33,996 bases of DNA from Anaerolineae bacterium. Its GTDB lineage: Bacteria > Chloroflexota > Anaerolineae > Promineifilales > Promineifilaceae. The translations under genes were made by a program, and so were the position numbers. The DNA lies in assembly GCA_014879345.1 (NCBI GenBank), contig JACSSI010000001.1, positions 1-33,996 on the forward strand, given 5' to 3'. This document shows, one piece after another, positions 1 through 9,568 of the stretch (position 1 is its first letter; each line of letters opens with the position of its first letter). A model generated the notes under the pieces. The model saw nothing but the letters and a program-made list of their open reading frames with translations. It was not told where the DNA came from and searched no databases.

Positions 1-15
1 TTTTATGCGAACGAC

Positions 16-330
16 ATGGCGTGTTGCCATGCTTCATGTGTGGCATCCGCATTAACAAACAAATCCGGGGCATCTGAAGATATCCCACCATCCTATGATC
101 CATTACAAGAGTTTGACACAATAAAGGAGGTTTATTTGGAAAAACAAAAACCCTTACAGCCCGTAAGCGATCCCCTGGAATTAACAGTGGCTGATTTATT
201 TAACCGGCTGGCAGAACTAGGCAGCAAAGCCCGTACACAAGAGAGCATCCAAAAGCATATAGGAGAACGAGCATCTCAGTTTACCTGGGAAACATCCTCT
301 TCAGCCAGTAATCCAACGCAGAATGTCTGA
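16..330 (+). CDS. hypothetical protein; frame is open to the window edge, so it may be 5'-truncated
   Basis: 104-aa ORF. No stop codon in frame between nt 1 and 16. No recognisable motif. Confidence 0.3.
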   Translation: MACCHASCVASALTNKSGASEDIPPSYDPLQEFDTIKEVYLEKQKPLQPVSDPLELTVADLFNRLAELGSKARTQESIQKHIGERASQFTWETSSSASNPTQNV

Positions 331-398
331 ACAGCGATTTGTTGATGTAAAGTGTCAGAAACTATGCGCCCTATACCTATCAAGAGTACAATTCTGGC

Positions 399-605
399 AT
401 GGATGCGACCTGGCTCACAGTAGAAGAAGGAGTTCGGTTAAGTGGCTATCATCCTGATCATCTTCGGAGACTTATTCGCGCTGGTGACGTTGTTGCTGTG
501 AAAAAAGGAAACGCCTGGTGGGTCCAACGTGACTCTTTGGCTGCATATCTAGATGCTGCCAGGCAATCTGATGACAAGCGACGCGGACCAAAACTGGAGG
601 ATTAG
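399..605 (+). CDS. excisionase-family / MerR-like helix-turn-helix DNA-binding protein
   Basis: 68 aa. LTVEEGVRLSGYHPDHLRRLIRAGDVVAVKKGNAWWVQRDSLAAYL fits the small Xis/AlpA-type HTH pattern. Located in the mobile element. Confidence 0.6.
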   Translation: MDATWLTVEEGVRLSGYHPDHLRRLIRAGDVVAVKKGNAWWVQRDSLAAYLDAARQSDDKRRGPKLED

Positions 606-633
606 TTAATTAGTCACTTCTTGACAGTTCTTG

Positions 634-665
634 TATAATATGTCTTATTGATAAGACATATTATA
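634..665. promoter_or_regulatory. Perfect 15-bp inverted repeat TATAATATGTCTTAT-tg-ATAAGACATATTATA (operator-like)
   Basis: Arms at 634-648 and 651-665 are exact reverse complements. TTGACA lies at 621-626 and TATAAT at 634-639 inside the left arm; that spacing is too short for a standard promoter. Confidence 0.4.
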
Positions 666-734
666 TCTAAAAGACGGACCATGTAATTGCTGGTAACAAC
701 TGCATGGTCCTCACCCAACCGCCAAACAGGTCTT

Positions 735-816
735 GGCAATGGGCTGAACCAATTCTAACATAATTGGGCGACCCAACGCATATCTGCAATGGGTTGCCCA
801 ATTTTGTTATTGGGGA
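735..816. repeat. Array of 3-4 short palindromic sites, TTGGG-N3-CCCAA type, spaced about 25 bp apart
   Basis: GGCAATGGGCTGAACCAATT (735-754), AATTGGGCGACCCAAC (762-777, perfect TTGGG-cga-CCCAA), CAATGGGTTGCCCAATT (787-803), TATTGGGGAAC (808-818). Confidence 0.35.
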
Positions 817-867
817 ACTAAACAGCCCTGCTGCCCTGTTACCTGGCGGTAGGGCTGTTTAGTTTTT
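816..867 (+). terminator. Hairpin AACTAAACAGCCCT / AGGGCTGTTTAGTT with a T-run; either a terminator or a cis-acting transfer/replication site
   Basis: 14-bp perfect arms at 816-829 and 851-864 around a 21-nt loop. Followed by TTTTT, then GGAGG (868-872) and the ATG at 877. Confidence 0.35.
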
Positions 868-876
868 GGAGGTCCC

Positions 877-1629
877 ATGAAAGAAAAGGTTCAGATAGGC
901 GTCAGCATTCTTGCTCTACTCGCCTTGCTAACTTACACGCTGGTACATACCGGTGGTTTGTTAGCCCGTTACGTTCAACCACCAGTGATTGGCTACGTGG
1001 CTGCCTTTGGCATCGAAGCAGCCGTTGTCAGTTTATCACTGCGAATTGGTGAGCTACGGCGCAGTAAGCAATCAACCGGATTTTTCTTGTTTGTTCTAAT
1101 TGCCGTCGTCATCGTGTCGGCTGTGGCCAATATCGCAGAAGGGTTTACGGCCGTTCAGGGTGAACGGCTGACCACCCAAACCATTCGTCAACTAGATCCA
1201 ATTCAAGCGTTCATCGGTTTGGCCGCTACTGGACTGGTTTCATTGATTGTGCTGGCGTTGGCCGAAATAATTGGGACGGATGTGGAAACGGCCGTTCAAC
1301 AATCTGCCCAACAGCGGAAAATCCGGGCCGTTCATGCAAAAGACAAATCCATTCCCACTGCGGAAACAAAAACCAAGCCAGTGTCCAACACAGCAGAAAC
1401 GGACAGCATCGAACGGGCACGTATCGCCAAAGCGGAAAAGGATACCAACAGCAAAACGAAAGCCGTAAACGCCTTGTTGGTTTACCTGAACGACAATCCT
1501 CAAGCCAGTTTGTCAGATATTGGACAGCAGATTAACCGTTCTAAAACGACCGTGTCCAGCTACATGCACGAACTGGAACGGAACGGCCGTTTACAACGGA
1601 ACGGTGAAGGCTGGCAAGTTTTATCATGA
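877..1629 (+). CDS. integral membrane protein with C-terminal winged-helix DNA-binding domain
   Basis: 250 aa. About 4 hydrophobic helices in the N-terminal half, then a K/E-rich linker, then LSDIGQQINRSKTTVSSYMHELERNGRL (wHTH-like). GGAGG RBS 5 nt upstream. Stop overlaps the next start (ATGA at 1626). Confidence 0.6.
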   Translation: MKEKVQIGVSILALLALLTYTLVHTGGLLARYVQPPVIGYVAAFGIEAAVVSLSLRIGELRRSKQSTGFFLFVLIAVVIVSAVANIAEGFTAVQGERLTTQTIRQLDPIQAFIGLAATGLVSLIVLALAEIIGTDVETAVQQSAQQRKIRAVHAKDKSIPTAETKTKPVSNTAETDSIERARIAKAEKDTNSKTKAVNALLVYLNDNPQASLSDIGQQINRSKTTVSSYMHELERNGRLQRNGEGWQVLS

Positions 1630-2066
1630 AATCGTTCGGCGCCGTTCTCCTGTTACTCTGCCTATTGTGTCTGTTAGTGTTCAGTCTGAGTGTAGGAAGC
1701 GTCGGAAAACACGCTGTAGACGCCTGGGCCGAACAGGCTGGACAGCCTGACAGTGTCACAGACACCGTCAGGCAAAGTCGCCAAACCCCGCCCATTGAAC
1801 CGGTCTATCGTACCAACAGAGCCTGGTTTGGCGCAGGTTTGTTGGCCCTGGTGGTGCTGGTGATTGGTGCAATGCTCTTCATGATGCATGGTGGCACTGA
1901 GTTCTTACGGCAGTGGCGATTGACCCGGAAACGGCCGTTTTCTCGCCAACAGCATACCCCTCAACAAGTACCTTACCCGATCAACTGGCCAGAGTTGCCC
2001 CACGTACCCACAGTACGCTATCTGCCGGAGGTGGACGATGAACAAGTTGTGGATTCTTGGGATTAG
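1626..2066 (+). CDS. small membrane protein (two hydrophobic segments)
   Basis: 146 aa. N-terminal signal/TM MKSFGAVLLLLCLLCLLVFSL and a second TM AWFGAGLLALVVLVIGAMLFMM. Translationally coupled on both sides. Confidence 0.5.
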   Translation: MKSFGAVLLLLCLLCLLVFSLSVGSVGKHAVDAWAEQAGQPDSVTDTVRQSRQTPPIEPVYRTNRAWFGAGLLALVVLVIGAMLFMMHGGTEFLRQWRLTRKRPFSRQQHTPQQVPYPINWPELPHVPTVRYLPEVDDEQVVDSWD

Positions 2067-3549
2067 CCTGTTTTTGCTGGCTGCCTGCAACACACCGCCT
2101 AATGGCGGGCATATCTTGACTCCTAATGCCGGGGCAACTTTATCCGCTGCCGAAATCGTCCATCAGCAAGCGGTCAACGCCGCCACGGCTCAAGCTGTTG
2201 AGTTGGTCCGGCAGTCGGCACAGGCCACCCAGCAAGCCTTAGTCGTGACGCAAGCAGCCGAGGTTATCGCTACTGGTACAGCCCAAAGCATCACCCGGGC
2301 ACAGACAGCCACGGCTGAGTCGATGGCAGTTCAGGCCACCGTGCAAGCCCTGGCTAATCAGGCAACATTATCCTCTATCGCTGCCAATGCCACCGGAACG
2401 GCCGTTGCTCAGGCTGCGATCGTTGAGCAACACCTGATAGAAGACGAAGCCCACCGCCTCGCCTTGCAGCGCCAATCCGAAATCGCCACGCTGGAATACA
2501 GGCAAGCCATGAACCGGCTAAAACCATTGTTGTGGGGCGGTCTGGTTTTCGCATTCATCATCCTCGCCGCTGGAATTGCTTACCACCTGTACCAACGATC
2601 TCGCCCGATCACCGTCGCCGATGTCAACGGCCCGCGTGTTTTGATTCCGGCCAACAGTTGGCAAGTCCTACCAGCGCAACGAACACAACGCGCTTTGCCA
2701 GAGTTATTGGGGCCAGGAGAAACGGCCGTTCGCCCCATTCCGCTCCCTTCTCTAGACCATGGACATGTCCTCATCGCTGGCGAAACCGGCAGCGGCAAAA
2801 GCACAGCCATGTTAGCCATTTTGCAGCACCGCCGGCAAGTGGTCATCCTCGACCCACACGATACCCCAGGCAATTGGGGCAGCACGCAGGTCATCGGCGG
2901 AGGACGAGACTTCGAGAGCATCGGTCTCTATTTGCAGCAGATGCGTCAATTGCTCAGCAAGCGTTACCGCCAGCGAGCACAAGGCGCCACCCAATTCGAA
3001 CCACTAACCGTAGCCACCGATGAAATGCCCGCTATCGTCGCCGCTTTAGGGCAACGAGTAGATGAAGTATGGCGCGAATGGTTAAGGGAAGGGCGTAAAG
3101 TGGGGCTGTTTTTTGTCGTGTCCACCCAAAGCACGCGCGTTAGAACCCTGGGTATACGCGGCGAAGGCGATTTACTGGAGAATTTCAACTACGTTTTGCT
3201 TCTTGGCAAGTTAGCCGTCGCTCAATACCCGGATCTGACCCAACGCATGGAATGGCCGGCCGTCTTGCGCACCAATCGGGATATCCGCCCTGTTATCATT
3301 CCAGTCGAACGTTCCTCAACTGACAGACCAACTAACACATCCCCCCTCTTTATTGCGCCAATGCCACAATCATCCGGCTATGCCGATCCCAATAACCTCA
3401 CCGAAGCTGTCCGCGAACATATCCGACAATTAGCAAAAGAACTACCCAGTCAAAGAGCAATAGAAAGAACCGTATTTGGCTATACAGGAGGTGCTGCCTA
3501 CCAGGCAGTCAAGGAAACCTTAGATGCTACTACGGACCAACACATATGA
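2038..3549 (+). CDS. FtsK/SpoIIIE (TraB-like) P-loop ATPase with lipoprotein signal, A/Q/T-rich ectodomain and one TM
   Basis: 503 aa. Lipobox LLAAC at residues 13-17. Low-complexity A/Q/T region. TM LLWGGLVFAFIILAAGIAYHLY. Walker A GETGSGKST, Walker B-like VATDEMP, and VGLFFVVSTQS (FtsK-like motif). Confidence 0.7.
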   Translation: MNKLWILGISLFLLAACNTPPNGGHILTPNAGATLSAAEIVHQQAVNAATAQAVELVRQSAQATQQALVVTQAAEVIATGTAQSITRAQTATAESMAVQATVQALANQATLSSIAANATGTAVAQAAIVEQHLIEDEAHRLALQRQSEIATLEYRQAMNRLKPLLWGGLVFAFIILAAGIAYHLYQRSRPITVADVNGPRVLIPANSWQVLPAQRTQRALPELLGPGETAVRPIPLPSLDHGHVLIAGETGSGKSTAMLAILQHRRQVVILDPHDTPGNWGSTQVIGGGRDFESIGLYLQQMRQLLSKRYRQRAQGATQFEPLTVATDEMPAIVAALGQRVDEVWREWLREGRKVGLFFVVSTQSTRVRTLGIRGEGDLLENFNYVLLLGKLAVAQYPDLTQRMEWPAVLRTNRDIRPVIIPVERSSTDRPTNTSPLFIAPMPQSSGYADPNNLTEAVREHIRQLAKELPSQRAIERTVFGYTGGAAYQAVKETLDATTDQHI

Positions 3550-3637
3550 TTTCTCGCTACGGTAGTAGCATAGTAGCGCCGCTACACACCTATAGCAGCG
3601 CAAAACTATAAGCAAAATTTCAGAAAGGAGAAATTTG

Positions 3638-5311
3638 ATGAGCAAACTTGCAGCAATTTATGTAAGAACATCTTCCGAACAACAAGGCGAAAGAGTAAGT
3701 CCAGGGGAACAAGAACGTGATTGCCGTTTGCTGGCCGAACAGCAAGGGTTAACAGTCGTAGGTGTATACCGCGACATCGAGCGGTATCGCGCCAAGAAGC
3801 GCCTAGTCGACCCTTCGGGTAAGCGCACGGATCGCCCAGGCATGAACGCTATGCTCAAAGACGCAGTTGCAGGAAAGTTTGACACCATTCTAGCCTGGAA
3901 AGAAGATCGACTTTATCGAGGCCTGCGGGCTATGTTATATGTGCTCGATGTTGTGCAAGATCAGAAAATGACGATTTTGCTAGCACGAGAAAATTTCGAT
4001 CCCAAAATGGCTCCTGTAAAAGCCTGGGTCGCCGGTATGGAATTAGATTCATTAAACGAAAGAATGACTATGGGAGTTAAAGCCCGTTTGCGAGCCGGTA
4101 AGGCCAATACCGGACAAGATCGATATGGATATCAACGTGTTGATGAAAAAATCTTCATCGTTGAGGAAGAAGCCAAATGGGTGCGCAAGATTTTCCAATG
4201 GTATAATAATCGAGTGTCCATGATGGAGATCCGCCGACGGCTTATCGAAGCGGGCGCTCCTCAAAAAGGCTCAACTAAACCGAGGAAAATTGAATGGGCC
4301 ATAACCAGCATTCAGGGTGTACTGAAAGCCGCCTACGAATATTCGCACGGTATTAAAGTGCAAACCCGCGCTGGAGAAGCCTTTGAAATCCCTGTCGAAC
4401 CAATAATCTCTATTGAAACGTATCAACGGTATTTGGAAGTCAGAGAATCAAACAAATCTTATCCGGCGCGCAATGTCAAAAACGATTATCTAGTGGGTGG
4501 ATTGATCTATTGCCAATGTCCGCGAAAATGGGGTGCCCGGGGTAGTTCATACAAACATGGAAATAAGCGACGTGATTACCCAACCGGCGTTTACTATTGT
4601 GGTCAACGTCATGCAGAGGTAAGACATGCCCATTGTCCAAAAACAATTGGCAGTAAAAAGGCAGACGACTATGTCTGGTCGAAAATTGTAGAGGTCTTAA
4701 ACAATCCTGACGTATTAATTACCAGAGCAAGACGTTACGTGGAAGAACTGTGCCAGAAAACAGAAACGGCCGTTACCGAACAAGATGCTTTGCAAACAGA
4801 ATTCGACAAACTCCTTTCGGAGCGGCAATGGATCATCACACAAGCACGGAAAGGAAGAATCACTGAAGAAGATATGGAACAGCAGTTGGCTCAATTAACG
4901 ACACAAGAACAGTACCTGAAAAACGAACTGGCTGCCTTCGGCGCTATCCACGAGATGCGATTGCTGGAGAATTGGGAAAAAATTGCCGTAGAGTACCTGG
5001 CAAACTTACATGCTGGTCTTGGGTCCCTCAATGAAACACCAACTACTGATGAAGAAAAAAAGGGGCAATTTCAACTGAAAAGGGAAATGGTTTTGATGTT
5101 AGTAGAAAAAGTGCTGATTAAAGAAGAGAGGAAGATGGAGGTGATTTTCAAGTTAGATGTGTTGTCGCTGTTGGGATTACATATCGACAACACATCTAAC
5201 GGCAATGGTGGATCAAACGTTAATTCACAACTGGCTCAAAACAAATTGGTCGGAACTTGTAACCGTAAACGATCATCCCTTCCTCGCCATCGGTTCGCAG
5301 TTTGCGCGTGA
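3638..5311 (+). CDS. large serine recombinase (integrase)
   Basis: N-terminal resolvase motif AAIYVRTSSEQQ and DRLYRG. Recombinase domain, Cys/His zinc-ribbon region (YCQCP...YYCGQRH...HCPK) and C-terminal coiled coil. AAGGAG RBS lies 7 nt before the ATG at 3638 (the ORF track starts at TTG 3635). The last ~40 aa look like read-through into flanking DNA. Confidence 0.9.
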   Translation: MSKLAAIYVRTSSEQQGERVSPGEQERDCRLLAEQQGLTVVGVYRDIERYRAKKRLVDPSGKRTDRPGMNAMLKDAVAGKFDTILAWKEDRLYRGLRAMLYVLDVVQDQKMTILLARENFDPKMAPVKAWVAGMELDSLNERMTMGVKARLRAGKANTGQDRYGYQRVDEKIFIVEEEAKWVRKIFQWYNNRVSMMEIRRRLIEAGAPQKGSTKPRKIEWAITSIQGVLKAAYEYSHGIKVQTRAGEAFEIPVEPIISIETYQRYLEVRESNKSYPARNVKNDYLVGGLIYCQCPRKWGARGSSYKHGNKRRDYPTGVYYCGQRHAEVRHAHCPKTIGSKKADDYVWSKIVEVLNNPDVLITRARRYVEELCQKTETAVTEQDALQTEFDKLLSERQWIITQARKGRITEEDMEQQLAQLTTQEQYLKNELAAFGAIHEMRLLENWEKIAVEYLANLHAGLGSLNETPTTDEEKKGQFQLKREMVLMLVEKVLIKEERKMEVIFKLDVLSLLGLHIDNTSNGNGGSNVNSQLAQNKLVGTCNRKRSSLPRHRFAVCA

Positions 5312-5630
5312 CCATTTCCACTGGCATCCCAATGTAGGCTTCATCCAGAGCCATATCCGTCAATTGTGCGGTGACAATGGGCCCTTCTTCCAATTTAATC
5401 AAGGCCACCTGATAGGGGGCATTGTGTTCAAAACCGGCTGGTGCGTCATAGATAGTGGTATAAGAGAAAACTTCACCTAAACCAGTGAAGGTATATAGTT
5501 CTTGAGCCGGTGCTTCACATTCTAAGCAAACATCACGGGGCGGAAATAATTTAACTCCACAAGAGTCACAGGTCTCCCCCACTAATTCATATCGTTGTTT
5601 TTGTAATCGCCAATGGCGTGAAACTTCCAT
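5220..5630 (-). CDS. DUF35 Zn-ribbon/OB-fold protein (thiolase/HMG-CoA synthase complex subunit type)
   Basis: 136 aa. CDSCGVKLFPPRDVCLEC rubredoxin-like C-x2-C-x10-C-x2-C followed by an OB-fold-type C-terminal half ending YGYKFRP. Adjacent to the thiolase and HMGCS genes. Confidence 0.85.
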   Translation of the reverse strand: MEVSRHWRLQKQRYELVGETCDSCGVKLFPPRDVCLECEAPAQELYTFTGLGEVFSYTTIYDAPAGFEHNAPYQVALIKLEEGPIVTAQLTDMALDEAYIGMPVEMVTRKLRTDGEEGMIVYGYKFRPICFEPVVN

Positions 5631-5833
5631 TATTATTTTCCTATCCTCCGAATAATTACGAAGATTTAAATTTTCGTTTTCCTAATGAACTAAGAGTTTC
5701 CAGTAGTGTATTATGCACACTTTTGCTTTCATTCCCTGCCAGAGTACAGGCAAAATACTGTCAAAAGCTATCATTGGTATAAAAAAGCGTTATTTGTTCA
5801 TGTTTTGTTAATAATTAGCACAACTATCGCACA

Positions 5834-6988
5834 TTAGTCGCGGATTTGCAAAATATGGGTAACGGCCGTTCCCCCACTGCCGCCTATATTCTGAGCCATG
5901 CCGATTTTTGCATCGGCAATCTGACAAGCACCCGCCTGACCGCGTAATTGACGCACCACTTCGACAATTTGGTACATGCCCGTCGCGCCACCTGGATTGC
6001 CCCGTGCTTTAAGGCCGCCAAATGTGCTGATGGGTAAACGGCCGTTTCTTGCAATCTCCCCATCCCGAGCCATCTGCCAACCCTTGCCCCGTTCCGCAAA
6101 GCCAGTCGCTTCCAGAGACAACGCCGCCATAATCGTGAACGAATCATGCAGTTCAAACAGGTCAATGTCATCATGCACCACGCCTGCCTGTGCCATCGCT
6201 TTCTGCGCACTCAACTCAGCCGCCTTCAACCACAATAAGTCGCGCCGATCATGCAGCGCAAACGCATCCGTGGCAATCGCCGAGCCAACAATTTCCACCG
6301 GCTGTGGCACCATGTCCATCGCCCGTTCCTTACTTGTCACAATAACGGCCGCTGCCCCATCAGCCAGGGGTGCCATATCAAACAGACTCACCGGATCAGC
6401 CACCAGTGGCGCAGAAATAAAACTCTCCGCCCGCAGCCGATTGCGGAACATCGCCAGCGGATTATCCGCGCCATTGGCATGAGCATTCACACTAAAACCA
6501 GCAAAATCCGCCAATTCTACGCCATGCTCATACATATAGCGCCGCATAATCAACGCTCCCATACCGGCCGTTGTTAACCCCTGCATCATTTCGTAGTCGG
6601 TATCAAGACCCGTTGCCAGGGCGCGTGTGACAGAAGCGCCTGTCTGGTCTGTCATTTTCTCCACACCTACAGCCAGCGCCGTTTTCACCATGCCGCTTTT
6701 CACAGCCAACACCGCTTGTCGCAGCGCCGCGCCACCAGACGCATCAGCCGCCTCCACCGTCACCGCTTCAATGCCGCGCATCCCGGCAAAATCTGCCACC
6801 AATGCGCCCAAATGGTTTTGCTGGCTCAGTTCACCAGCCAGCATATTGCCCACAAACAGAGCATCCACCTTACTTACGTGAGCATCATCCAGCGCCGCCT
6901 CAATCGCATACCACGACAGATGACGGATGGAGGTTTCCCACATTTCTTTCACTTCGGTTTGGCCTACGCCAATAATTGAAACATCCAT
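5834..6988 (-). CDS. thiolase-fold protein (archaeal/SCP2-type acetoacetyl-CoA thiolase homologue) with non-canonical active-site residues
   Basis: Start reassigned to MDVSIIGVGQT (ATG at 6986-6988, GAGGA RBS). Family motifs VEKMT, DGAAAVIV, GGLKA-G-P-GATG and NIGGSGGT are present. However VEAADASG has Asp where the Cys nucleophile is expected, HDSF replaces HDCF, and GNP replaces GHP. Confidence 0.85.
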   Translation of the reverse strand: MDVSIIGVGQTEVKEMWETSIRHLSWYAIEAALDDAHVSKVDALFVGNMLAGELSQQNHLGALVADFAGMRGIEAVTVEAADASGGAALRQAVLAVKSGMVKTALAVGVEKMTDQTGASVTRALATGLDTDYEMMQGLTTAGMGALIMRRYMYEHGVELADFAGFSVNAHANGADNPLAMFRNRLRAESFISAPLVADPVSLFDMAPLADGAAAVIVTSKERAMDMVPQPVEIVGSAIATDAFALHDRRDLLWLKAAELSAQKAMAQAGVVHDDIDLFELHDSFTIMAALSLEATGFAERGKGWQMARDGEIARNGRLPISTFGGLKARGNPGGATGMYQIVEVVRQLRGQAGACQIADAKIGMAQNIGGSGGTAVTHILQIRD

Positions 6989-7009
6989 ACTGACATTTCC
7001 TCGATTATC

Positions 7010-7070
7010 TAGTGCGTAGTGCGTAATGCGTAAGCCGTTTAACGCTACGCAATACGTACTACGCACTACT
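7010..7070. repeat. Intercistronic hairpin built from TAGTGCG-type heptamers and their complement
   Basis: Left arm TAGTGCGTAGTGCGTAATGCGTAAGC, right arm GCTACGCAATACGTACTACGCACTA. About 22 of 25 positions pair. It fills the HMGCS-stop to thiolase-start gap. Confidence 0.75.
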
Positions 7071-7072
7071 GT

Positions 7073-8146
7073 TTATAGTTTTAATTTATCCCGATAGCGG
7101 GTATAGGTGGCGTAATCAATTTCCGTGCGGCGGGCGATATACCCTTCCGTAGAAATGGCACGGCCGCGCACTTCTGGCAGTTTTTCGGTGACTTGCAGAT
7201 CGAAGGCGTCTGAACCGGCGCCAGAGCCATAGCTCACCATCAAAATGCGGTCGCCCGGTTTGGCAATATCCAGAATGGCCGTAAGACCAATCATCGTGGA
7301 GCCAGAGTAGGTGTTGCCAATGCGGGGACTGAGCAGCCCGGGCGCAATTTTTTCAGGCGTAAAGCCTAACGATTTGGCGGCACGCTGCGGGAATTTGGCA
7401 TTAGGCTGATGAAAGACTGCCCAGTCATAATCGGCGGCTGTGCGGCCAATAGCGTTCATCAGCATCTCAGACGCGCCCATGACGTGTTTGAAATAGGCTG
7501 GCTCACCCGTAAAACGGTCGCCATGCGAGGGATAGTCTTCATGCGCCCGTCGCCAGAAGTCGGGCGTATCGGTGACAAAGGAGTAGGAGCCGTTGATAAT
7601 GGCAACCGATTCGTCGGCTGGGCCGATGAGGGTAGCCGCGCCACCAGCCGCTGCTGTGTATTCCAGGGCATCGCCCGGACGACCTTGAGCGGTGTCCATA
7701 CCGATGCTCAAGGCATAACGCGCCATACCAGAGCCAACGAAGGCAATCGCAGCCTGCATCGCTTCGGTGCCTGCTTTACAGGCGAATTCCCAGTCAGCAG
7801 CCTGGGTATTTGGCACAGCGCCAATTGCTTCGGCAACGGTGGTACTGGTTGGTTTGACGGCGTAGGGGTGGCTTTCGCTGCCTACCCAGACGGCGCGGAT
7901 CTCTTGCGGATTGATTTGGGCGCGTAACATGGTGTTGCGTGCCGCTTCAATCGACATGGTGATCACGTCTTCGTCCAGGCCATTGACTGCTTTTTCTTTG
8001 ACAGGCGAGCCACCGGTGCCACCCGTCCACATGCGCGAGATTTCCTCGCCTCTAATACGATAGCGTGGCACATAAGCGCCATACCCGACGATGCCAACGG
8101 GTCGGTCGGGTTTCATGAGTCCATCTGAGGGGTTGTAGTTGTTCAT
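7073..8146 (-). CDS. hydroxymethylglutaryl-CoA synthase (archaeal type)
   Basis: 357 aa. [15 protein letters not shown], catalytic-Cys motif [19 protein letters not shown] and GNTYSGS. GAGGA RBS. Confidence 0.9.
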
Positions 8147-8153
8147 GTTTCCT

Positions 8154-8214
8154 CGTAGTGCGTAGTGCGTAGTGCGTATTTCGTCGGATTACGGAATACG
8201 CACTACGCACTACG
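8154..8214. repeat. Intercistronic hairpin (TAGTGCG)n / (CGCACTA)n
   Basis: Arm 8161-8184 (CGTAGTGCGTAGTGCGTATTTCGT) pairs with arm 8191-8214 at 23 of 24 positions; loop is CGGATT. It fills the HMGR-stop to HMGCS-start gap. Confidence 0.8.
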
Positions 8215-8215
8215 A

Positions 8216-9568
8216 TTATTTATTAAGTTCCGCGAGAATTTCCTGGGCGCGGACGCTGTTGATTTGTTTGTCTGCAATCATACGTTCGGTAATGACTGGT
8301 ACTTGCTCGGGGGTGGCGCCGGCAGCGGTGGCAACCTGACGGGCGTGCAAGCGCATGTGGCCTTGTTGGATGCCGACGGTTGAGAGGGCTTTGATGGCGG
8401 CCAAATTTTGAGCCAGGCCCACACAGGCCAGCACTTGGGCCAGTTCTTGGGCAGAACTGACGTTTAGGATTTTCATGGCGACTTTGGCGGTGGGATGCAC
8501 TTTAGTCGCGCCCCCGACTGTGCCAACGGCCATCGGCAAGGTGATTTCGCCATAGAGGTCGCCGTTTTCGTTGACGTGCCAGTCGGTGAGGGCGGTATAA
8601 CGGCCGTTTCTCGCCGCATAAGCATGAGCACCCGCCTCAATCGCCCGCCAGTCATTACCCGTTGCCACTACCACCGCGTCAATACCGTTCATGATGCCTT
8701 TGTTGTGGGTGGCCGCCCGATAGGGGTCTACGATGGCGAAGGCGTTGGCTTCAGCGATGCGCTGGGCCGCTTCTGCGCCAGAAATGCCGTCCACTGCCAG
8801 GGCTGCTGCGGGAATAACGCCGCGGGCGGTGGCGGTGCGCTGGTCGGCCAAATTGGAGAGAATGCGCAGTAAGGTGCGTCCGCCAGTTAATTCAGCGATG
8901 CGAGGGGCCATCAGTTCCAATGCCGTATTGACGGAGTTTGCGCCCATAGCATCACGGGTGTCGTAGAGCAGGTGGACAATCAACATGGGACCGACGGGTG
9001 AATCGGGAAACGGCCGTTGTTGAATATCCCGTGCGCCACCACCCAGCCGAAGCATCAGGGCATCACTGCTGTTCGCCAGTTCCATGAGCTCATCTTTGTG
9101 CGCTTCGAGGGTGGCAATGGCCGCCTCCATATCAGGCACGTCCAGCACCTGAATCTGCCCAATCATGACCGGATCGCTGGCTTCTGTGTGGAAACCGCCA
9201 CCGGCACGAATCAATTTGGCCGCATGGCTCAACGCAGCTACCACACTCGGCTCTTCTACCGTCATGGGAATGAGATAGTCCTTGCCGTTTATCTGAAAGT
9301 TAGTGGCAATTCCCAGGGGCAATGCATAAGTGCCCACAACATTTTCAATCATGAGGTCTGCTTGTTCTGGCTGCAAACCTTTTCCGTTCAAAACAGCTTT
9401 TTCATCAGCAGAAAGTTCTGCCCATTTAGCTATTAGATCAGCTCGATCTGTAACTGATTTTTTGTAAAACCCCGGTATACGTGATGATTGACTTGTCACA
9501 ATCCACTCCTTTTCAAAACAATCCCGCAGGTTTTGGGCTGCGGGAGACTGTTTTAGATTTAGTTTCAC
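8216..9568 (-). CDS. mvaA: HMG-CoA reductase, class II
   Basis: 450 aa, GTG start. MIENVVGTYALPLGIATNFQINGKDYLIPMTVEEPSVVAA, HNKGIMNGIDAVVVATGNDWRA and QQGHMRLHARQ match class II (Pseudomonas mevalonii type) catalytic Glu/Lys/Asp/His motifs. Confidence 0.9.
   Translation of the reverse strand: MKLNLKQSPAAQNLRDCFEKEWIVTSQSSRIPGFYKKSVTDRADLIAKWAELSADEKAVLNGKGLQPEQADLMIENVVGTYALPLGIATNFQINGKDYLIPMTVEEPSVVAALSHAAKLIRAGGGFHTEASDPVMIGQIQVLDVPDMEAAIATLEAHKDELMELANSSDALMLRLGGGARDIQQRPFPDSPVGPMLIVHLLYDTRDAMGANSVNTALELMAPRIAELTGGRTLLRILSNLADQRTATARGVIPAAALAVDGISGAEAAQRIAEANAFAIVDPYRAATHNKGIMNGIDAVVVATGNDWRAIEAGAHAYAARNGRYTALTDWHVNENGDLYGEITLPMAVGTVGGATKVHPTAKVAMKILNVSSAQELAQVLACVGLAQNLAAIKALSTVGIQQGHMRLHARQVATAAGATPEQVPVITERMIADKQINSVRAQEILAELNK

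What the first reader, a model, noticed from the sequence alone, without database searches (positions are those of the whole stretch)
1..5311. Compact integrative element with serine integrase and FtsK-like translocase (AICE-like logic)
Five co-oriented genes, three of them overlapping: Xis-like HTH, membrane+wHTH protein, small membrane protein, FtsK/SpoIIIE-like ATPase and a large serine recombinase. A single FtsK/TraB-type translocase plus an integrase and small membrane proteins is the design of actinomycete integrative and conjugative elements, which move double-stranded DNA without a type IV secretion system. No relaxase or VirB4 is visible in the part present in the window. The element carries the host palindrome at host-like density (6 copies in 5.3 kb). 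This argues for long residence or circulation among hosts that share the word.
Basis: partly seen in the sequence, partly recalled or inferred. Interest (0 to 1): 0.65.

Follow-up and report, generated by a model that had tools for sequence, protein, structure and literature searches.

The report
Chloroflexota integrative element, hybrid transfer genes

Summary

The element is real and mobile. Its right end lies at window 5247/5248, inside the 3' end of a DUF35 gene. A relative in another species is 96% identical up to that base and only 69-75% identical beyond it. About ten related genomes carry untouched sites, and several others keep decayed integrase remnants at the same spot.

The ATPase is FtsK-like by both Pfam and fold: its best PDB matches are the FtsK motor, EssC and TcpA. 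It is not VirB4 or VirD4.

However, the window holds only about 30% of the element. A Logan contig identical to the window over their 6.8-kb overlap, and close relatives, add several upstream genes:
- a DUF3854 Rep-like protein with iterons;
- a NikA-like RHH protein;
- a VirD4-family coupling-protein homologue that has lost its membrane anchor and Walker motifs;
- a new 225-aa family whose only confident fold match is the MobA relaxase, and which has an invariant HxDxxxPHxH motif.

'AICE-like' is therefore only partly right. The element is a hybrid: a relaxase/coupling-protein module joined to an FtsK-like membrane module, with no VirB4. The left end (attL), excision and transfer were not demonstrated.

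The parts
16..330 (+). Conserved 104-aa ORF of unknown function, first element gene inside the window
   Evidence: ORF. It is called as a gene on L001, L002 and L003 and is 96% identical in L003. No family hit.
399..605 (+). 68-aa HTH_17 (excisionase/AlpA-like) DNA-binding protein; candidate directionality factor or regulator
   Evidence: Pfam HTH_17 E=6e-9. TIGR01764 'excise' scores 18.7 bits, below its cut-off. PHROG excisionase families also match. It is 100% identical in L003. Its role with a serine integrase is inferred.
611..687 (.). Intergenic control region: a perfect 15+15 palindrome (634-665, TATAATATGTCTTAT-TG-ATAAGACATATTATA) flanked by divergent promoter-like hexamers; probable operator
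   Evidence: Inverted repeat I24 (L001 8099-8130 = window 634-665). Promoter-like sites at 611-639 (+) and 687-660 (-). Promoter counts are not above the shuffled expectation, so the function is inferred.
816..864 (+). 20-bp hairpin (90% complementary, 9-nt loop) just upstream of the membrane-protein operon
   Evidence: Inverted repeat I9 (L001 8281-8329). A terminator-like site at 833-855.
877..1629 (+). 250-aa membrane protein: 4 TM segments plus a C-terminal winged HTH (membrane-tethered DNA binder)
   Evidence: TM segments at residues 5-23, 37-55, 69-87 and 111-129. HTH_24 E=4.8e-5, IclR 1.2e-4 and MarR 3e-4 at residues 199-243. Syntenic with the ATPase in L003, L005 and L088.
1626..2066 (+). 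146-aa small membrane protein (N-terminal signal/TM plus one TM), translationally coupled to both neighbours
   Evidence: Hydrophobic segments at 5-23 and 68-86. ATGA overlap with the upstream gene and a 29-nt overlap with the ATPase gene. No family hit.
2038..3549 (+). 503-aa membrane-anchored FtsK/TcpA-like ATPase. It has a lipoprotein-type signal (LLAAC), a long helical region, a TM at 164-182, a RecA-like motor at about 235-420 with intact Walker A (GETGSGKST) and Walker B (TDEMP), and a C-terminal three-helix domain at 456-502
   Evidence: 29 of 41 family members hit Pfam FtsK_SpoIIIE and 27 of 41 hit DUF87; none hit VirB4 or T4SS-DNA_transf. The AF2 model has pLDDT 75.6, with the motor above 90. 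Top Foldseek PDB hits are the FtsK motor 6t8g/2ius, EssC 4lya and TcpA 6o1x at E about 1e-7. Invariant G253, K254 and E329; D328 conserved in at least 90% of members.
3638..5311 (+). Large serine recombinase (557 aa). The last 21 codons (5248-5311) are read from host DNA antisense to DUF35
   Evidence: Resolvase and Recombinase domains. PHROG integrase E=1e-72. CcrC/CcrA/CcrB and XisF models match weakly. Orthologues of 95%, 71% and 68% identity sit at the same DUF35 site in L003, L009 and L019.
5152..5200 (.). Perfect 16-bp hairpin inside the integrase 3' coding region; probable element-supplied terminator for the DUF35 operon
   Evidence: Inverted repeat I17. It is conserved with compensatory changes in relatives and remnants, and is followed by a T-run in L023 and L024. 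DUF35 transcripts end at 4829-5191 in four metatranscriptomes.
5220..5247 (-). Element-encoded replacement of the last 8 codons and stop of DUF35 (ICFEPVVN*); the right junction (attR) is at 5247/5248
   Evidence: Untouched sites continue ...FRP-AV.... Occupied and remnant sites mostly continue ...FRP-I(C/F/H).... DNA homology to untouched sites stops at 5248. Identity to L003 falls from 96.0% to 75.5% at this base.
5248..5630 (-). Host target gene: DUF35/ChsH2-type OB-fold protein of the archaeal-type mevalonate operon (thiolase 5834-7066, HMG-CoA synthase 7073-8146, HMG-CoA reductase 8216-9568)
   Evidence: Pfam OB_ChsH2_C E=8.5e-18 and zf-ChsH2 E=1e-6. Operon synteny holds in 20 related Anaerolineae loci. 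The gene is highly expressed.

Best explanation
Window 1-5247 is the integrase-proximal third of a modular integrative element of about 18 kb. The host is a filamentous Anaerolineae (Chloroflexota) bacterium of the Ardenticatenaceae/Promineifilaceae type.

Shown:
- A large serine recombinase has placed the element in the 3' end of the DUF35 gene of the mevalonate operon.
- The element replaces the last 8 codons of DUF35 and supplies a hairpin.
- Nearly identical copies sit at the same site in a different species, so the element has moved horizontally in the recent past.

Shown by homology or fold:
- The element carries a replication module, left of the window: a DUF3854 Toprim-plus-P-loop Rep-like protein next to two inverted arrays of 9-bp iterons.
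- It carries a DNA-processing module, also left of the window: a 225-aa MobA-like relaxase candidate, a NikA-like RHH protein and a VirD4-family coupling-protein homologue. In this copy the homologue lacks its membrane anchor and its Walker A and B motifs.
- It carries a membrane module inside the window: a 4-TM protein with a winged HTH, a small membrane protein and an intact FtsK/TcpA-like ATPase.

Inferred mechanism:
1. The integrase excises the element, possibly with the HTH_17 protein as directionality factor.
2. Rep copies the circle.
3. The relaxase nicks an oriT.
4. The inactive coupling-protein homologue acts as an adaptor. It hands the DNA to the FtsK-like motor.
5. The motor, together with the two membrane proteins, forms a minimal VirB4-less translocon between adjacent cells.

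In short, the logic is TcpA-like (an FtsK-branch motor serving a relaxase) rather than purely TraB-like.
For: Boundary and mobility:
- Identity to L003 is 96.0% over window 1-5247. It is 75.5% in DUF35, 69.3% in thiolase and 72.7% in HMGCS to the right of that base.
- About ten related genomes have untouched sites and at least five carry integrase remnants.
- A 58-kb contig from a bioreactor-sludge DNA run carries a 97% copy ending 39 nt into DUF35.
- Related elements sit at other sites with other serine integrases: L088 next to asd, and L086 next to a GAF kinase.

Extent:
- L001 is identical to the window over the 6,782 overlapping bases and adds 7.5 kb on the left.
- L091 (96%) and L087 (93%) add about 5 kb more.

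ATPase.

Relaxase candidate:
- The family alignment shows invariant H118, D120, H125 and H127 and a nearly invariant Y35.
- The AF2 model has pLDDT 81.
- The only confident Foldseek hit is 2ns6, the MobA minimal relaxase (prob 0.99; the next hit has prob 0.05).

Coupling protein:
- The L005 homologue hits T4SS-DNA_transf at 1.8e-38, TraG-D_C at 6e-23 and TrwB at 1e-17.
- Alignment shows that the window element's copy has lost its TM region and Walker motifs.

RHH protein: NikA-like, E=1e-3, below the Pfam cut-off.

Rep:
- DUF3854 E=1.7e-25. DUF3854 proteins are the CyRepA plasmid replication proteins of cyanobacteria (PMC10079941).
- The iteron arrays occur only in the 6 loci that carry this gene.

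Module linkage: the membrane trio travels with the relaxase/coupling-protein module in L001, L005 and L088.
Against: - No excision, circular form or transfer was observed. The public runs available were contigs or metatranscriptomes, and they show only the integrated form.
- attL was not pinned down.
- The relaxase call rests on one modest Foldseek hit (E=3e-3, TM 0.36-0.43) plus a motif. There is no Pfam or NCBIfam hit and no PDB sequence hit.
- No oriT was identified experimentally.
- A relaxase-plus-FtsK-branch-motor system without VirB4 has no characterised precedent. TcpA systems do have VirB4 (PMC3548315).
- L086-type relatives keep the relaxase/coupling-protein module without the ATPase trio. 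L019 lacks the ATPase and the small membrane protein. Homologous ATPases sit on tiny relaxase-less cyanobacterial plasmids. The two modules are therefore separable and need not work together.
- Element genes are barely expressed in four metatranscriptomes.
Confidence: 0.45

Rival explanations
1. This is the first reader's model: a pure AICE-like element. The FtsK-like ATPase alone, helped by the small membrane proteins (Spd-like), pumps the excised and replicated double-stranded circle into the neighbouring cell after recognising a clt-like repeat. The relaxase-like and coupling-protein-like genes are relics or serve replication.
For: - The ATPase fold is closest to the FtsK dsDNA motor.
- Its architecture (membrane anchor, motor, C-terminal helical domain) parallels FtsK and TraB.
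- The coupling-protein homologue of this very element is catalytically dead and has no anchor.
- Homologous ATPases occur on 5.6-6.4-kb plasmids of filamentous cyanobacteria that have no relaxase, and in the plasmid-like L089 locus with no relaxase called within 10 kb.
- The host lineage is filamentous, like the mycelial hosts of TraB systems (PMC3429521, PMC5704250).
- Rep plus Int plus Tra is the canonical AICE set (PMC3429521).
- A membrane protein with a DNA-binding domain recalls the Spd proteins (PMC4447253).
Against: - The relaxase-like family is strongly conserved. It has 32 invariant columns, including the metal-binding histidines, across 25 sequences. That is not what a relic looks like.
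- The family always sits beside the coupling-protein homologue and near an RHH protein.
- Sister elements (L005, L096) keep a fully canonical VirD4 together with the same ATPase trio.
- No clt-like repeat is associated with the ATPase. The 9-bp arrays follow the Rep gene, and they persist in L019, which lacks the ATPase.
Confidence: 0.2
2. This is an integrative mobilizable element (IME). It supplies its own integrase, Rep, relaxase and coupling-protein-like adaptor, but depends on the mating pore of another conjugative element in the cell. The FtsK-like ATPase trio has another role: a substitute coupling protein of the kind IMEs of Firmicutes carry, septal segregation of the excised circle within filaments, or entry exclusion.
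For: - No VirB4, VirB6, VirB8 or cell-wall hydrolase was found among the element's 19 or so genes.
- IMEs with serine integrases, and IMEs that carry their own TcpA-type coupling protein, are well documented. In those, the coupling protein is gained, lost and replaced between relatives (PMC5704250).
- The same gain and loss pattern is seen here: L086 and L019 lack the ATPase.
Against: - No helper T4SS is known or was seen in these genomes. This was not testable here.
- Carrying two coupling-protein-type genes plus two dedicated membrane proteins is more than known IMEs carry.
- The trio is translationally coupled and conserved as a unit down to 74% protein identity in L005, and to about 69% for the ATPase in L088.
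Confidence: 0.25
3. This is a virus-like or satellite element, and the FtsK/HerA-type ATPase is a genome-packaging enzyme.
For: - The PHROG family 'terminase large subunit' (phrog_2666) matches at E=1.2e-9.
- Ten IMG/VR contigs encode relatives of 33-51% identity.
- The L090 context contains phage-like genes (Gp80, M23 peptidases).
Against: - No capsid, portal or tail gene was found in the element of about 18 kb.
- No match to any of 50,697 deposited phage genomes.
- The one IMG/VR locus examined showed no head or packaging hallmark apart from the ATPase itself.
- The protein has a lipoprotein signal and a membrane anchor.
Confidence: 0.06
4. This is a domesticated or dead remnant fixed at this locus.
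For: - Several relatives are visibly decaying. L003 has an internal 4.5-kb deletion plus an IS21. L096 carries an IS21 and a group II intron. L019 lacks two genes. Five genomes keep only integrase fragments.
- Expression is very low.
Against: - In the copy that includes the window (window plus L001), all genes are intact.
- The identity step from 96% to about 70% across the junction between two species shows recent horizontal movement.
- About ten related genomes have untouched sites.
Confidence: 0.04

Closest known systems
AICEs and Streptomyces conjugative plasmids (pSAM2, SLP1, pSVH1; TraB/TraSA systems)
   Same: Integrase, a Rep gene, a membrane-anchored FtsK-branch ATPase and small membrane proteins next to it. 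The element is compact and its host is filamentous. A minority of AICEs (13%) also use serine recombinases (PMC3429521). Spd membrane proteins accompany TraB (PMC4447253).
   Different: The host phylum is Chloroflexota, whereas TraB homologues were reported only in Actinobacteria (PMC3548315). The element also encodes a relaxase-like protein, an RHH accessory protein and a VirD4-family homologue. Rep is DUF3854 (CyRepA-like), not RepSA, RepAM or Prim-Pol. No clt was identified. The ATPase shows no closer sequence relation to TraB than to FtsK, EssC or TcpA.
TcpA-type coupling proteins of Firmicutes (pCW3, Tn916, ICEBs1) and IMEs that carry their own TcpA
   Same: An FtsK-branch ATPase with an N-terminal membrane anchor sits in an element that also encodes a relaxase. 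TcpA (6o1x) is among the top fold matches. Relaxase, coupling protein and serine or tyrosine integrase are shuffled as modules between relatives (PMC5704250).
   Different: TcpA systems co-occur with VirB4 (MPF-FA) and lack VirD4. Their relaxases are of the MobT/RCR type (PMC3548315, PMC5704250). Here there is no VirB4, there is a VirD4 homologue, and the relaxase candidate is MobA (MOBQ)-like.
MOBQ relaxases (MobA of R1162/RSF1010)
   Same: The 225-aa protein's only confident structural match is the MobA minimal relaxase domain 2ns6. It has an HxDxxxPHxH histidine cluster and a conserved tyrosine in an N-terminal segment that resembles the MobA motif I. The resemblance of the motifs is from memory.
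   Different: No detectable sequence similarity to Pfam, NCBIfam or PDB relaxases. The catalytic domain is only about 160 aa, followed by a low-complexity tail, with no primase domain. The family is confined to Anaerolineae metagenome-assembled genomes and metagenomes.
CyRepA-type (DUF3854) plasmid replication proteins of cyanobacteria
   Same: An N-terminal DUF3854/Toprim-like domain followed by a P-loop NTPase region (PMC10079941).
   Different: Here the protein is on an integrated element and is flanked by inverted 9-bp iteron arrays. Replication activity was not tested.
Large serine recombinases of phages and SCC/ICE elements (CcrC, XisF, TndX-type)
   Same: Resolvase and Recombinase domains, a zinc-ribbon and coiled-coil region, and integration at one specific site.
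   Different: Only weak similarity to named families; CcrC scores 60 bits against a cut-off of 900. The target is the 3' end of a DUF35 gene. The element restores the gene's end, and the integrase ORF itself runs across the junction into host DNA.

Membership tests
AICE (actinomycete integrative and conjugative element) | Encodes an FtsK-domain Tra protein | tested here: met
   29 of 41 family members hit Pfam FtsK_SpoIIIE. Top Foldseek hits are the FtsK motor, EssC and TcpA. The window protein itself is below the Pfam cut-off (19.2 against 24 bits).
AICE (actinomycete integrative and conjugative element) | Encodes an integrase and a replication initiator | tested here: met
   Large serine recombinase. 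DUF3854 Rep-like protein with iterons on the identical contig L001. The Rep type differs from RepSA and RepAM.
AICE (actinomycete integrative and conjugative element) | Transfer relies on the single Tra protein, with no relaxase, coupling protein or T4SS | tested here: not met
   A MobA-like relaxase candidate, a NikA-like RHH protein and a VirD4-family homologue are in the same element. VirB4 is indeed absent.
AICE (actinomycete integrative and conjugative element) | Host is an actinomycete; dsDNA transfer was demonstrated | tested here: not met
   The host is an Anaerolineae (Chloroflexota) bacterium: the closest genomes are Ardenticatenaceae, Promineifilaceae and Leptovillus metagenome-assembled genomes. 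The strandedness of transferred DNA cannot be tested with these tools.
T4SS-type ICE (self-transmissible) | VirB4-family ATPase and mating-pore proteins | tested here: not met
   No VirB4/CagE, VirB6, VirB8 or hydrolase hit in any protein of the window, L001, L087 or L091.
T4SS-type ICE (self-transmissible) | Relaxase plus a functional VirD4 or TcpA coupling protein | tested here: inconclusive
   The relaxase is supported by fold and motif only. The VirD4 homologue of this copy lacks Walker A and B and its TM region. The FtsK-like ATPase is intact and could substitute for it.
IME (integrative mobilizable element) | Own integration/excision module plus a relaxase and/or oriT, no complete mating pore | tested here: met
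   Integrase and a sharp junction. Relaxase candidate. No mating-pore genes found. Dependence on a helper element cannot be tested here.
Large serine recombinase (integrase subfamily) | N-terminal resolvase catalytic domain with a serine, a recombinase domain, a zinc ribbon and a coiled coil; size above 400 aa | tested here: met
   Resolvase at residues 6-156, Recombinase at 177-271, 557 aa in all, N-terminal motif YVRTSSEQQ and a Cys-rich segment around 300-345. The zinc-ribbon Pfam model did not hit this copy, although L086's integrase hits it.
MOBQ relaxase | HUH-type fold with a three-histidine metal site and an N-terminal catalytic tyrosine | tested here: inconclusive
   Foldseek gives 2ns6 MobA at prob 0.99, E=3e-3, TM 0.36/0.43. 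H118, H125 and H127 are invariant and Y35 is conserved in at least 90% of sequences. No sequence-profile hit. Nicking activity is not testable here.
VirD4-type coupling protein (T4CP) | N-terminal TM anchor plus a Walker A/B NTPase and the TraG-D_C region | tested here: not met
   The protein is homologous (31% identity to L005's bona fide T4CP, which hits T4SS-DNA_transf at 1.8e-38). However, the window element's copy has no TM region and reads APPDSAWRE and LDTE in place of GPTRSGKG and VDE.

The most novel reading that the evidence does not exclude
Filamentous Chloroflexota carry a previously undescribed minimal conjugation apparatus, with related ATPases on tiny relaxase-less plasmids of filamentous cyanobacteria such as pDU1. 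In it, an FtsK-branch membrane motor and two small membrane proteins replace the VirB4-based type IV secretion system. The motor is fed either by a new MobA-like mini-relaxase through a catalytically dead VirD4 adaptor, or directly with double-stranded DNA. This would be a third lineage of FtsK-type cell-to-cell DNA transfer, outside Actinobacteria (TraB) and Firmicutes (TcpA). [quoted passage not shown]
Probability: 0.25. Interest if true: 0.8.

Novelty: new variant of a known kind. Interest (0 to 1): 0.55.

Why it matters
Almost nothing is known about how genes move between Chloroflexota, even though Anaerolineae filaments are abundant in activated sludge, sediments and bioreactors.

This element family shows three things:
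- It has moved recently between species: 96% identity inside the element against about 70% in the flanking host genes.
- It uses a defined and conserved chromosomal target, the 3' end of the DUF35 gene of the mevalonate operon. The element repairs that gene end.
- It combines parts from the two conjugation systems that textbooks keep apart: a relaxase and coupling protein on one side, and an FtsK-like motor with small membrane proteins on the other, with no VirB4.

TraB and TcpA homologues were previously reported only from Actinobacteria and Firmicutes (PMC3548315). An FtsK-branch transfer ATPase in Chloroflexota would widen that picture and give a tractable test of whether such motors can serve a relaxase.

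There are practical uses as well. The serine integrase with its attB, and the DUF3854 Rep with its iterons, are candidate genetic tools for a phylum that has very few.

Tried and rejected
1. Direct family assignment of the ATPase from the single sequence. Pfam, NCBIfam and PDB hits were sub-threshold and covered the P-loop only. This was resolved with a 41-member alignment and a fold search.

2. Defence-system reading. The only PADLOC hit was mad8 over the Walker A segment. Rejected.

3. Search for excision or empty-site evidence in reads. The four best-matching runs are metatranscriptomes, and their contigs span the integrated junction. DNA runs hold only relatives of about 97% identity, and only as contigs.

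4. attL.
   - L001, L087 and L091 all stop inside or near the left part.
   - Comparison of L091, L086 and L092 puts one homology boundary at 'AAACATCC...' (L091 about 437, L086 2887, L092 89).
   - L096 and L003 share about 1.2 kb more on the left, with a boundary at 'TATAATTTAGC' (L096 about 4905, L003 about 662).
   - Neither candidate flank shows a recognisable displaced DUF35 tail, and neither reconstructed attP has dyad symmetry.
   - The left flanks show no synteny with relatives.
   - attL therefore remains unresolved.

5. The 9-bp repeat arrays as a clt for the ATPase. Rejected in favour of Rep iterons, because they track the DUF3854 gene and persist where the ATPase is deleted.

6. 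Rfam search of L001 and L091: nothing found.

7. Phage origin. No hit among deposited phages, and no capsid or terminase in the IMG/VR locus examined.

8. Host junction at 5311 or at the hairpin. Rejected, because window 5152-5247 differs from L003 by 1 base in 89, while divergence starts at 5248.

9. Literature. No paper was found on this element type, on the palindrome, or on conjugation genes of Chloroflexota.

Full report
**1. What is in the window**

Six co-oriented ORFs occupy window 1-5311:
- 16-330 encodes a 104-aa protein with no family hit.
- 399-605 encodes a 68-aa HTH_17 protein (E=6e-9), excisionase-like in TIGR and PHROG models.
- 877-1629 encodes a 250-aa protein with four TM segments and a C-terminal winged HTH.
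- 1626-2066 encodes a 146-aa protein with two hydrophobic segments.
- 2038-3549 encodes a 503-aa P-loop ATPase.
- 3638-5311 encodes a 557-aa large serine recombinase.

The three middle genes overlap by 4 and 29 nt.

The 'host palindrome' is AACGGCCGTT. It occurs 40 times in the window, against 0.03 expected from base composition. Six copies lie in 1-5247 (1.14/kb) and 34 lie elsewhere (1.18/kb).

**2. Host and target**

Downstream, on the minus strand, lies an archaeal-type mevalonate operon: DUF35 (5220-5630), thiolase, HMG-CoA synthase and HMG-CoA reductase.

A scan of one genome per species with the thiolase returned Anaerolineae metagenome-assembled genomes. The closest are Ardenticatenaceae, Promineifilaceae, 'Ca. 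Leptovillus' and 'Ca. Leptofilum', with a maximum of 88% amino-acid identity. The palindrome is frequent in these relatives (0.9-2.4 copies of the 8-mer core per kb) and absent from the Longilinea and Anaerolineaceae loci sampled.

**3. The right end is a real, sharp junction**

The integrase ORF overlaps the convergent DUF35 gene by 92 nt.

In 21 related loci the DUF35 gene ends ...YGYKFRP followed by one of two kinds of tail:
- Untouched sites continue 'AV....*' and then have their own terminator. These are L006, L007, L010-L014, L016, L018 and L024.
- Sites that carry an integrase or integrase fragments mostly continue 'I(C/F/H).....N*' and then a hairpin.

DNA homology between the window and the untouched sites stops at window 5248.

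Full orthologous elements sit at the same place in three relatives:
- L003 and L004, with an integrase 95% identical.
- L009, 71% identical.
- L019, 68% identical.

Fragments of the integrase 3' end remain in L017, L021, L022, L025 and L027.

The decisive result is the identity profile against L003, a 680-kb contig of another species:
- 96.0% over window 1-5247.
- 75.5% in DUF35.
- 69.3% in thiolase.
- 72.7% in HMG-CoA synthase.

The step falls between the bins 5001-5250 and 5251-5500. Within 5152-5247 the two copies differ at 1 base in 89.

Three conclusions follow:
- The element ends at 5247/5248.
- It supplies the last 8 codons and the stop of DUF35, plus a 16-bp hairpin (5152-5200) that is conserved with compensatory changes.
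- The last 21 codons of the integrase are read from host DNA.

A DNA run from bioreactor sludge holds a 58-kb contig that is 97% identical over window 1-5286. The element has therefore moved between species recently, always into this site. The 'domesticated remnant' alternative is excluded for this copy.

**4. The window holds only about a third of the element**

The Logan contig L001 is identical to the window over the 6,782 overlapping bases and extends 7,465 bp to the left. Three further contigs extend it:
- L091, 96% identical to L001.
- L087, 93% identical.
- L096, the 58-kb contig.

Joining L091 to L001 gives about 17.7 kb.

The gene order from the left is:
1. a 63-aa protein;
2. a 334-aa protein;
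3. RadC (E=1.5e-41);
4. a 347-aa protein;
5. a 243-aa protein;
6. a 139-148-aa protein;
7. a 170-aa membrane protein;
8. a 178-aa protein;
9. the 225-aa protein (relaxase candidate);
10. the 525-aa protein (coupling-protein homologue);
11. a 241-aa protein;
12. a 67-aa protein, NikA-like RHH (E=1e-3, below the cut-off);
13. a 740-aa DUF3854 protein (E=1.7e-25);
14. the six window genes.

**5. The ATPase**

Alone, it gives only sub-threshold P-loop hits. Its 157 homologues are almost all unnamed metagenomic proteins. The few that are named are Chloroflexi or Chloroflexota proteins.

In a 41-member alignment, 29 members hit FtsK_SpoIIIE, 27 hit DUF87/HerA, one hits TrwB_AAD_bind and none hits a VirB4 or T4SS-DNA_transf model.

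The AlphaFold model (pLDDT 75.6, motor above 90) shows:
- a lipoprotein-type signal;
- a long helical stretch;
- one TM segment at 164-182;
- a RecA-like motor;
- a C-terminal three-helix domain.

Walker A (GETGSGKST) and Walker B (TDEMP) are intact, and an FtsK-like ...VVSTQS... segment is present.

The Foldseek ranking is: FtsK motor bound to dsDNA (6t8g, E=7e-8), then EssC, then TcpA of pCW3 (6o1x, E=5e-7), then E. coli FtsK.

The ATPase belongs to the FtsK/TraB/TcpA branch.

**6. A relaxase candidate and a coupling-protein homologue**

The 225-aa protein belongs to a family of 76 proteins. All are unannotated, and the few with organism names come from Anaerolineae or Ardenticatenaceae metagenome-assembled genomes.

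Its N-terminal 160 residues are strongly conserved. H118, D120, H125 and H127 are invariant, forming HxDxxxPHxH, and Y35 is nearly invariant in ...SATKARKLAQY(L/F)A.GRGR.

The model (pLDDT 81, pTM 0.70) places the histidines on adjacent strands. Its only confident PDB match is the minimal relaxase domain of MobA from R1162 (2ns6, prob 0.99, E=3e-3). The next hit has prob 0.05. From memory, both motifs resemble the MOBQ motifs I and III. No sequence profile detects the family.

The adjacent 525-aa protein is 31% identical to the L005 orthologue. That orthologue is a bona fide VirD4/TraG coupling protein: T4SS-DNA_transf 1.8e-38, TraG-D_C 6e-23, TrwB 1e-17.

Alignment shows two states of this gene in the family:
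- A canonical state with an N-terminal TM region, Walker A (GPTRSGKG or APTRAGK) and Walker B (DE). This occurs in L005 and L096. In L096 a group II intron splits the gene at Walker A.
- A degenerate state without the TM region, reading APPDSAWRE and LDTE. This occurs in L001 and L091 (the window's element), L086 and L088.

**7. Replication module**

DUF3854 proteins are the CyRepA replication proteins of cyanobacterial plasmids (PMC10079941).

Two inverted arrays of a 9-bp unit (GTTGGCAYR, 3.5-7 copies) lie about 290-310 bp apart and straddle the 3' end of this gene. They occur only in the six loci that carry the gene. They persist in L019, which lacks the ATPase. I read them as Rep iterons rather than as a clt.

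**8. Modularity**

- L088 has the full gene order, from the relaxase-like gene to the ATPase, but a different serine integrase (37% identity over only 89 residues). It lies next to asd.
- L005 has the same order and an L088-type integrase.
- L086 keeps the left genes, the relaxase-like gene, the degenerate coupling protein and the RHH protein. It has a DnaC-like replication pair instead of DUF3854, no FtsK-like trio and a third integrase type (22% identity). It lies between a Cas4 gene and a GAF kinase gene.
- L019 lacks the ATPase and the 146-aa protein.
- More distant ATPase relatives (about 40% identity) sit in plasmid-like or phage-like contexts with no relaxase called nearby. They also occur in ten IMG/VR contigs. 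The one IMG/VR locus examined showed no capsid or terminase.
- ATPase relatives also occur at about 30% identity on very small, relaxase-less plasmids of filamentous cyanobacteria, including pDU1 and pCC7120zeta.
- No deposited phage has a homologue.

**9. Mechanism**

Shown:
- site-specific integration by a serine recombinase into the DUF35 3' end;
- restoration of the gene end by the element;
- recent interspecies spread;
- modular exchange between relatives.

Inferred, in order of my confidence:
- Replication of the excised circle by DUF3854 Rep at the iterons.
- Nicking by the MobA-like protein, with the RHH protein as accessory factor.
- Delivery through the ATPase-dead VirD4 homologue to the FtsK-like motor. 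The motor, the wHTH membrane protein and the small membrane protein would form a VirB4-less translocon between neighbouring cells.

I put this hybrid model at about 0.45. The helper-dependent IME model is at 0.25, the pure TraB-like dsDNA model at 0.20, the virus-like model at 0.06 and the dead remnant at 0.04.

The main argument against the pure AICE model is the strong purifying conservation of the relaxase-like active-site residues, together with the co-occurrence of a canonical VirD4 and the same ATPase trio in sister elements.

The main arguments for the pure AICE model are three:
- the dead coupling protein in this very copy;
- the dsDNA-motor fold of the ATPase;
- the relaxase-less plasmids that carry homologous ATPases.

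**10. Expression**

In four metatranscriptomes the DUF35 mRNA is abundant (word depth 33-55). Its contigs run into the element, antisense to the integrase, as far as 4829-5191. Element genes are represented only by a few low-depth fragments. All contigs that cross 5247 show the integrated form.

**11. What stays open**

- attL. There are two candidate homology boundaries, and neither is convincing.
- Excision and transfer.
- The oriT. A conserved 75-nt non-coding motif at the left end is a candidate.
- The role of the HTH_17 protein with a serine integrase.
- The functions of about ten unassigned proteins.

**12. Comparison and novelty**

The element shares Int + Rep + FtsK-like Tra + small membrane proteins with AICEs (PMC3429521, PMC4447253). 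It fails the AICE criterion that a single Tra protein does the transfer, with no relaxase or coupling protein.

With TcpA systems and TcpA-bearing IMEs (PMC3548315, PMC5704250) it shares the pairing of an FtsK-branch motor with a relaxase. It differs from them in lacking VirB4, in having a VirD4 homologue and in its MOBQ-like relaxase.

It is best filed as a new variant of integrative mobilizable or conjugative elements, in a phylum where none has been characterised. I found no paper on it.

Noticed in passing
whole window (for example 1287, 1582, 1930, 2397, 2721, 4765, and 34 more sites); also L005, L010, L011, L088: The 10-mer palindrome AACGGCCGTT occurs 40 times in 34 kb, against 0.03 expected. 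Its 8-mer core occurs at 0.9-2.4 copies per kb in Ardenticatenales/Promineifilales-like loci and is absent from the Longilinea and Anaerolineaceae loci sampled. This is a HIP1-like, lineage-specific iterated palindrome. I found no publication on it.
   Followed up: partly
L001 7024-7059 and 7349-7382 (83-115 bp left of window base 1); also L003, L005, L019, L088: Two inverted arrays of a 9-bp unit GTTGGCAYR (3.5-7 copies) lie about 290-310 bp apart and straddle the 3' end of the DUF3854 gene. They are present only in the six loci that carry that gene. They are probably replication iterons.
   Followed up: yes
L091 ~437-560; L086 2887-2975; L092 89-190; L003 1705-1794; L096 6147-6237: A conserved non-coding motif of about 75 nt (TGAGCAGCACCCT.GTT..CCC..ACGGC-n3-GCCGTGGGCTTTGTGAAG) lies at or near the left end of the element family. 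It contains a small hairpin that keeps pairing through a change (ACGGC/GCCGT versus ACGGCC/GGCCGT). It is a candidate oriT or att arm. It has no Rfam match.
   Followed up: partly
window 634-665: A perfect 15+15-bp palindrome (TATAATATGTCTTAT TG ATAAGACATATTATA) lies between divergent promoter-like boxes, downstream of the HTH_17 gene. It is a likely operator.
   Followed up: no
window 5152-5200; L009, L017, L019, L021-L025, L027: A 16-bp hairpin inside the integrase 3' coding region is kept with compensatory changes. It survives in genomes that have lost the integrase, and in L023 and L024 it is followed by a T-run. The element appears to donate a terminator to the DUF35 operon.
   Followed up: partly
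L005 1869-3800; L096 16231-20611; L001 2155-3732: The VirD4-family gene exists in a canonical form and in a TM-less form with dead Walker motifs within one element family. In L096 a group II intron (RT/maturase, 606 aa) is inserted exactly at the Walker A codons.
   Followed up: yes
L003 1979-4278; L096 7626-9913: IS21-family insertions (transposase plus IstB) sit at different positions in two otherwise 96-97%-identical copies of the element. L003 also has a 4.5-kb internal deletion that removes the relaxase and coupling-protein module.
   Followed up: partly
plasmids NC_008440.1 (pDU1) 1557-2690; NC_003241.1 (pCC7120zeta) 2957-4129; NZ_CP064893.1 13323-14513: Small plasmids of filamentous cyanobacteria (5.6-20 kb, typed non-mobilizable) encode homologues of the motor and C-terminal domain of the ATPase, at about 30% identity. 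They are annotated only as 'ATP-binding protein' or 'hypothetical protein'.
   Followed up: partly
window 5220-9568 (-): An archaeal-type mevalonate-pathway operon (DUF35, thiolase, HMG-CoA synthase, HMG-CoA reductase) lies in an Anaerolineae genome. The DUF35 transcript is among the more abundant contigs in four metatranscriptomes, and it reads antisense into the integrase gene.
   Followed up: partly
window 5220-5247 compared with L021-L027: The element-encoded DUF35 tail (ICFEPVVN or ICSQQVLN) resembles the native tails of 'Ca. Leptofilum'-type genomes (AVSAQVLH, AVTQPVLH). It does not resemble the tails of the window's closest relatives (AVQEVVPA). This hints at where the element's att arm came from.
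   Followed up: no
L086 520-2501: The related element in 'Ca. Leptofilum proximum' lies directly downstream of a cas1-cas2-cas4 adaptation module.
   Followed up: no
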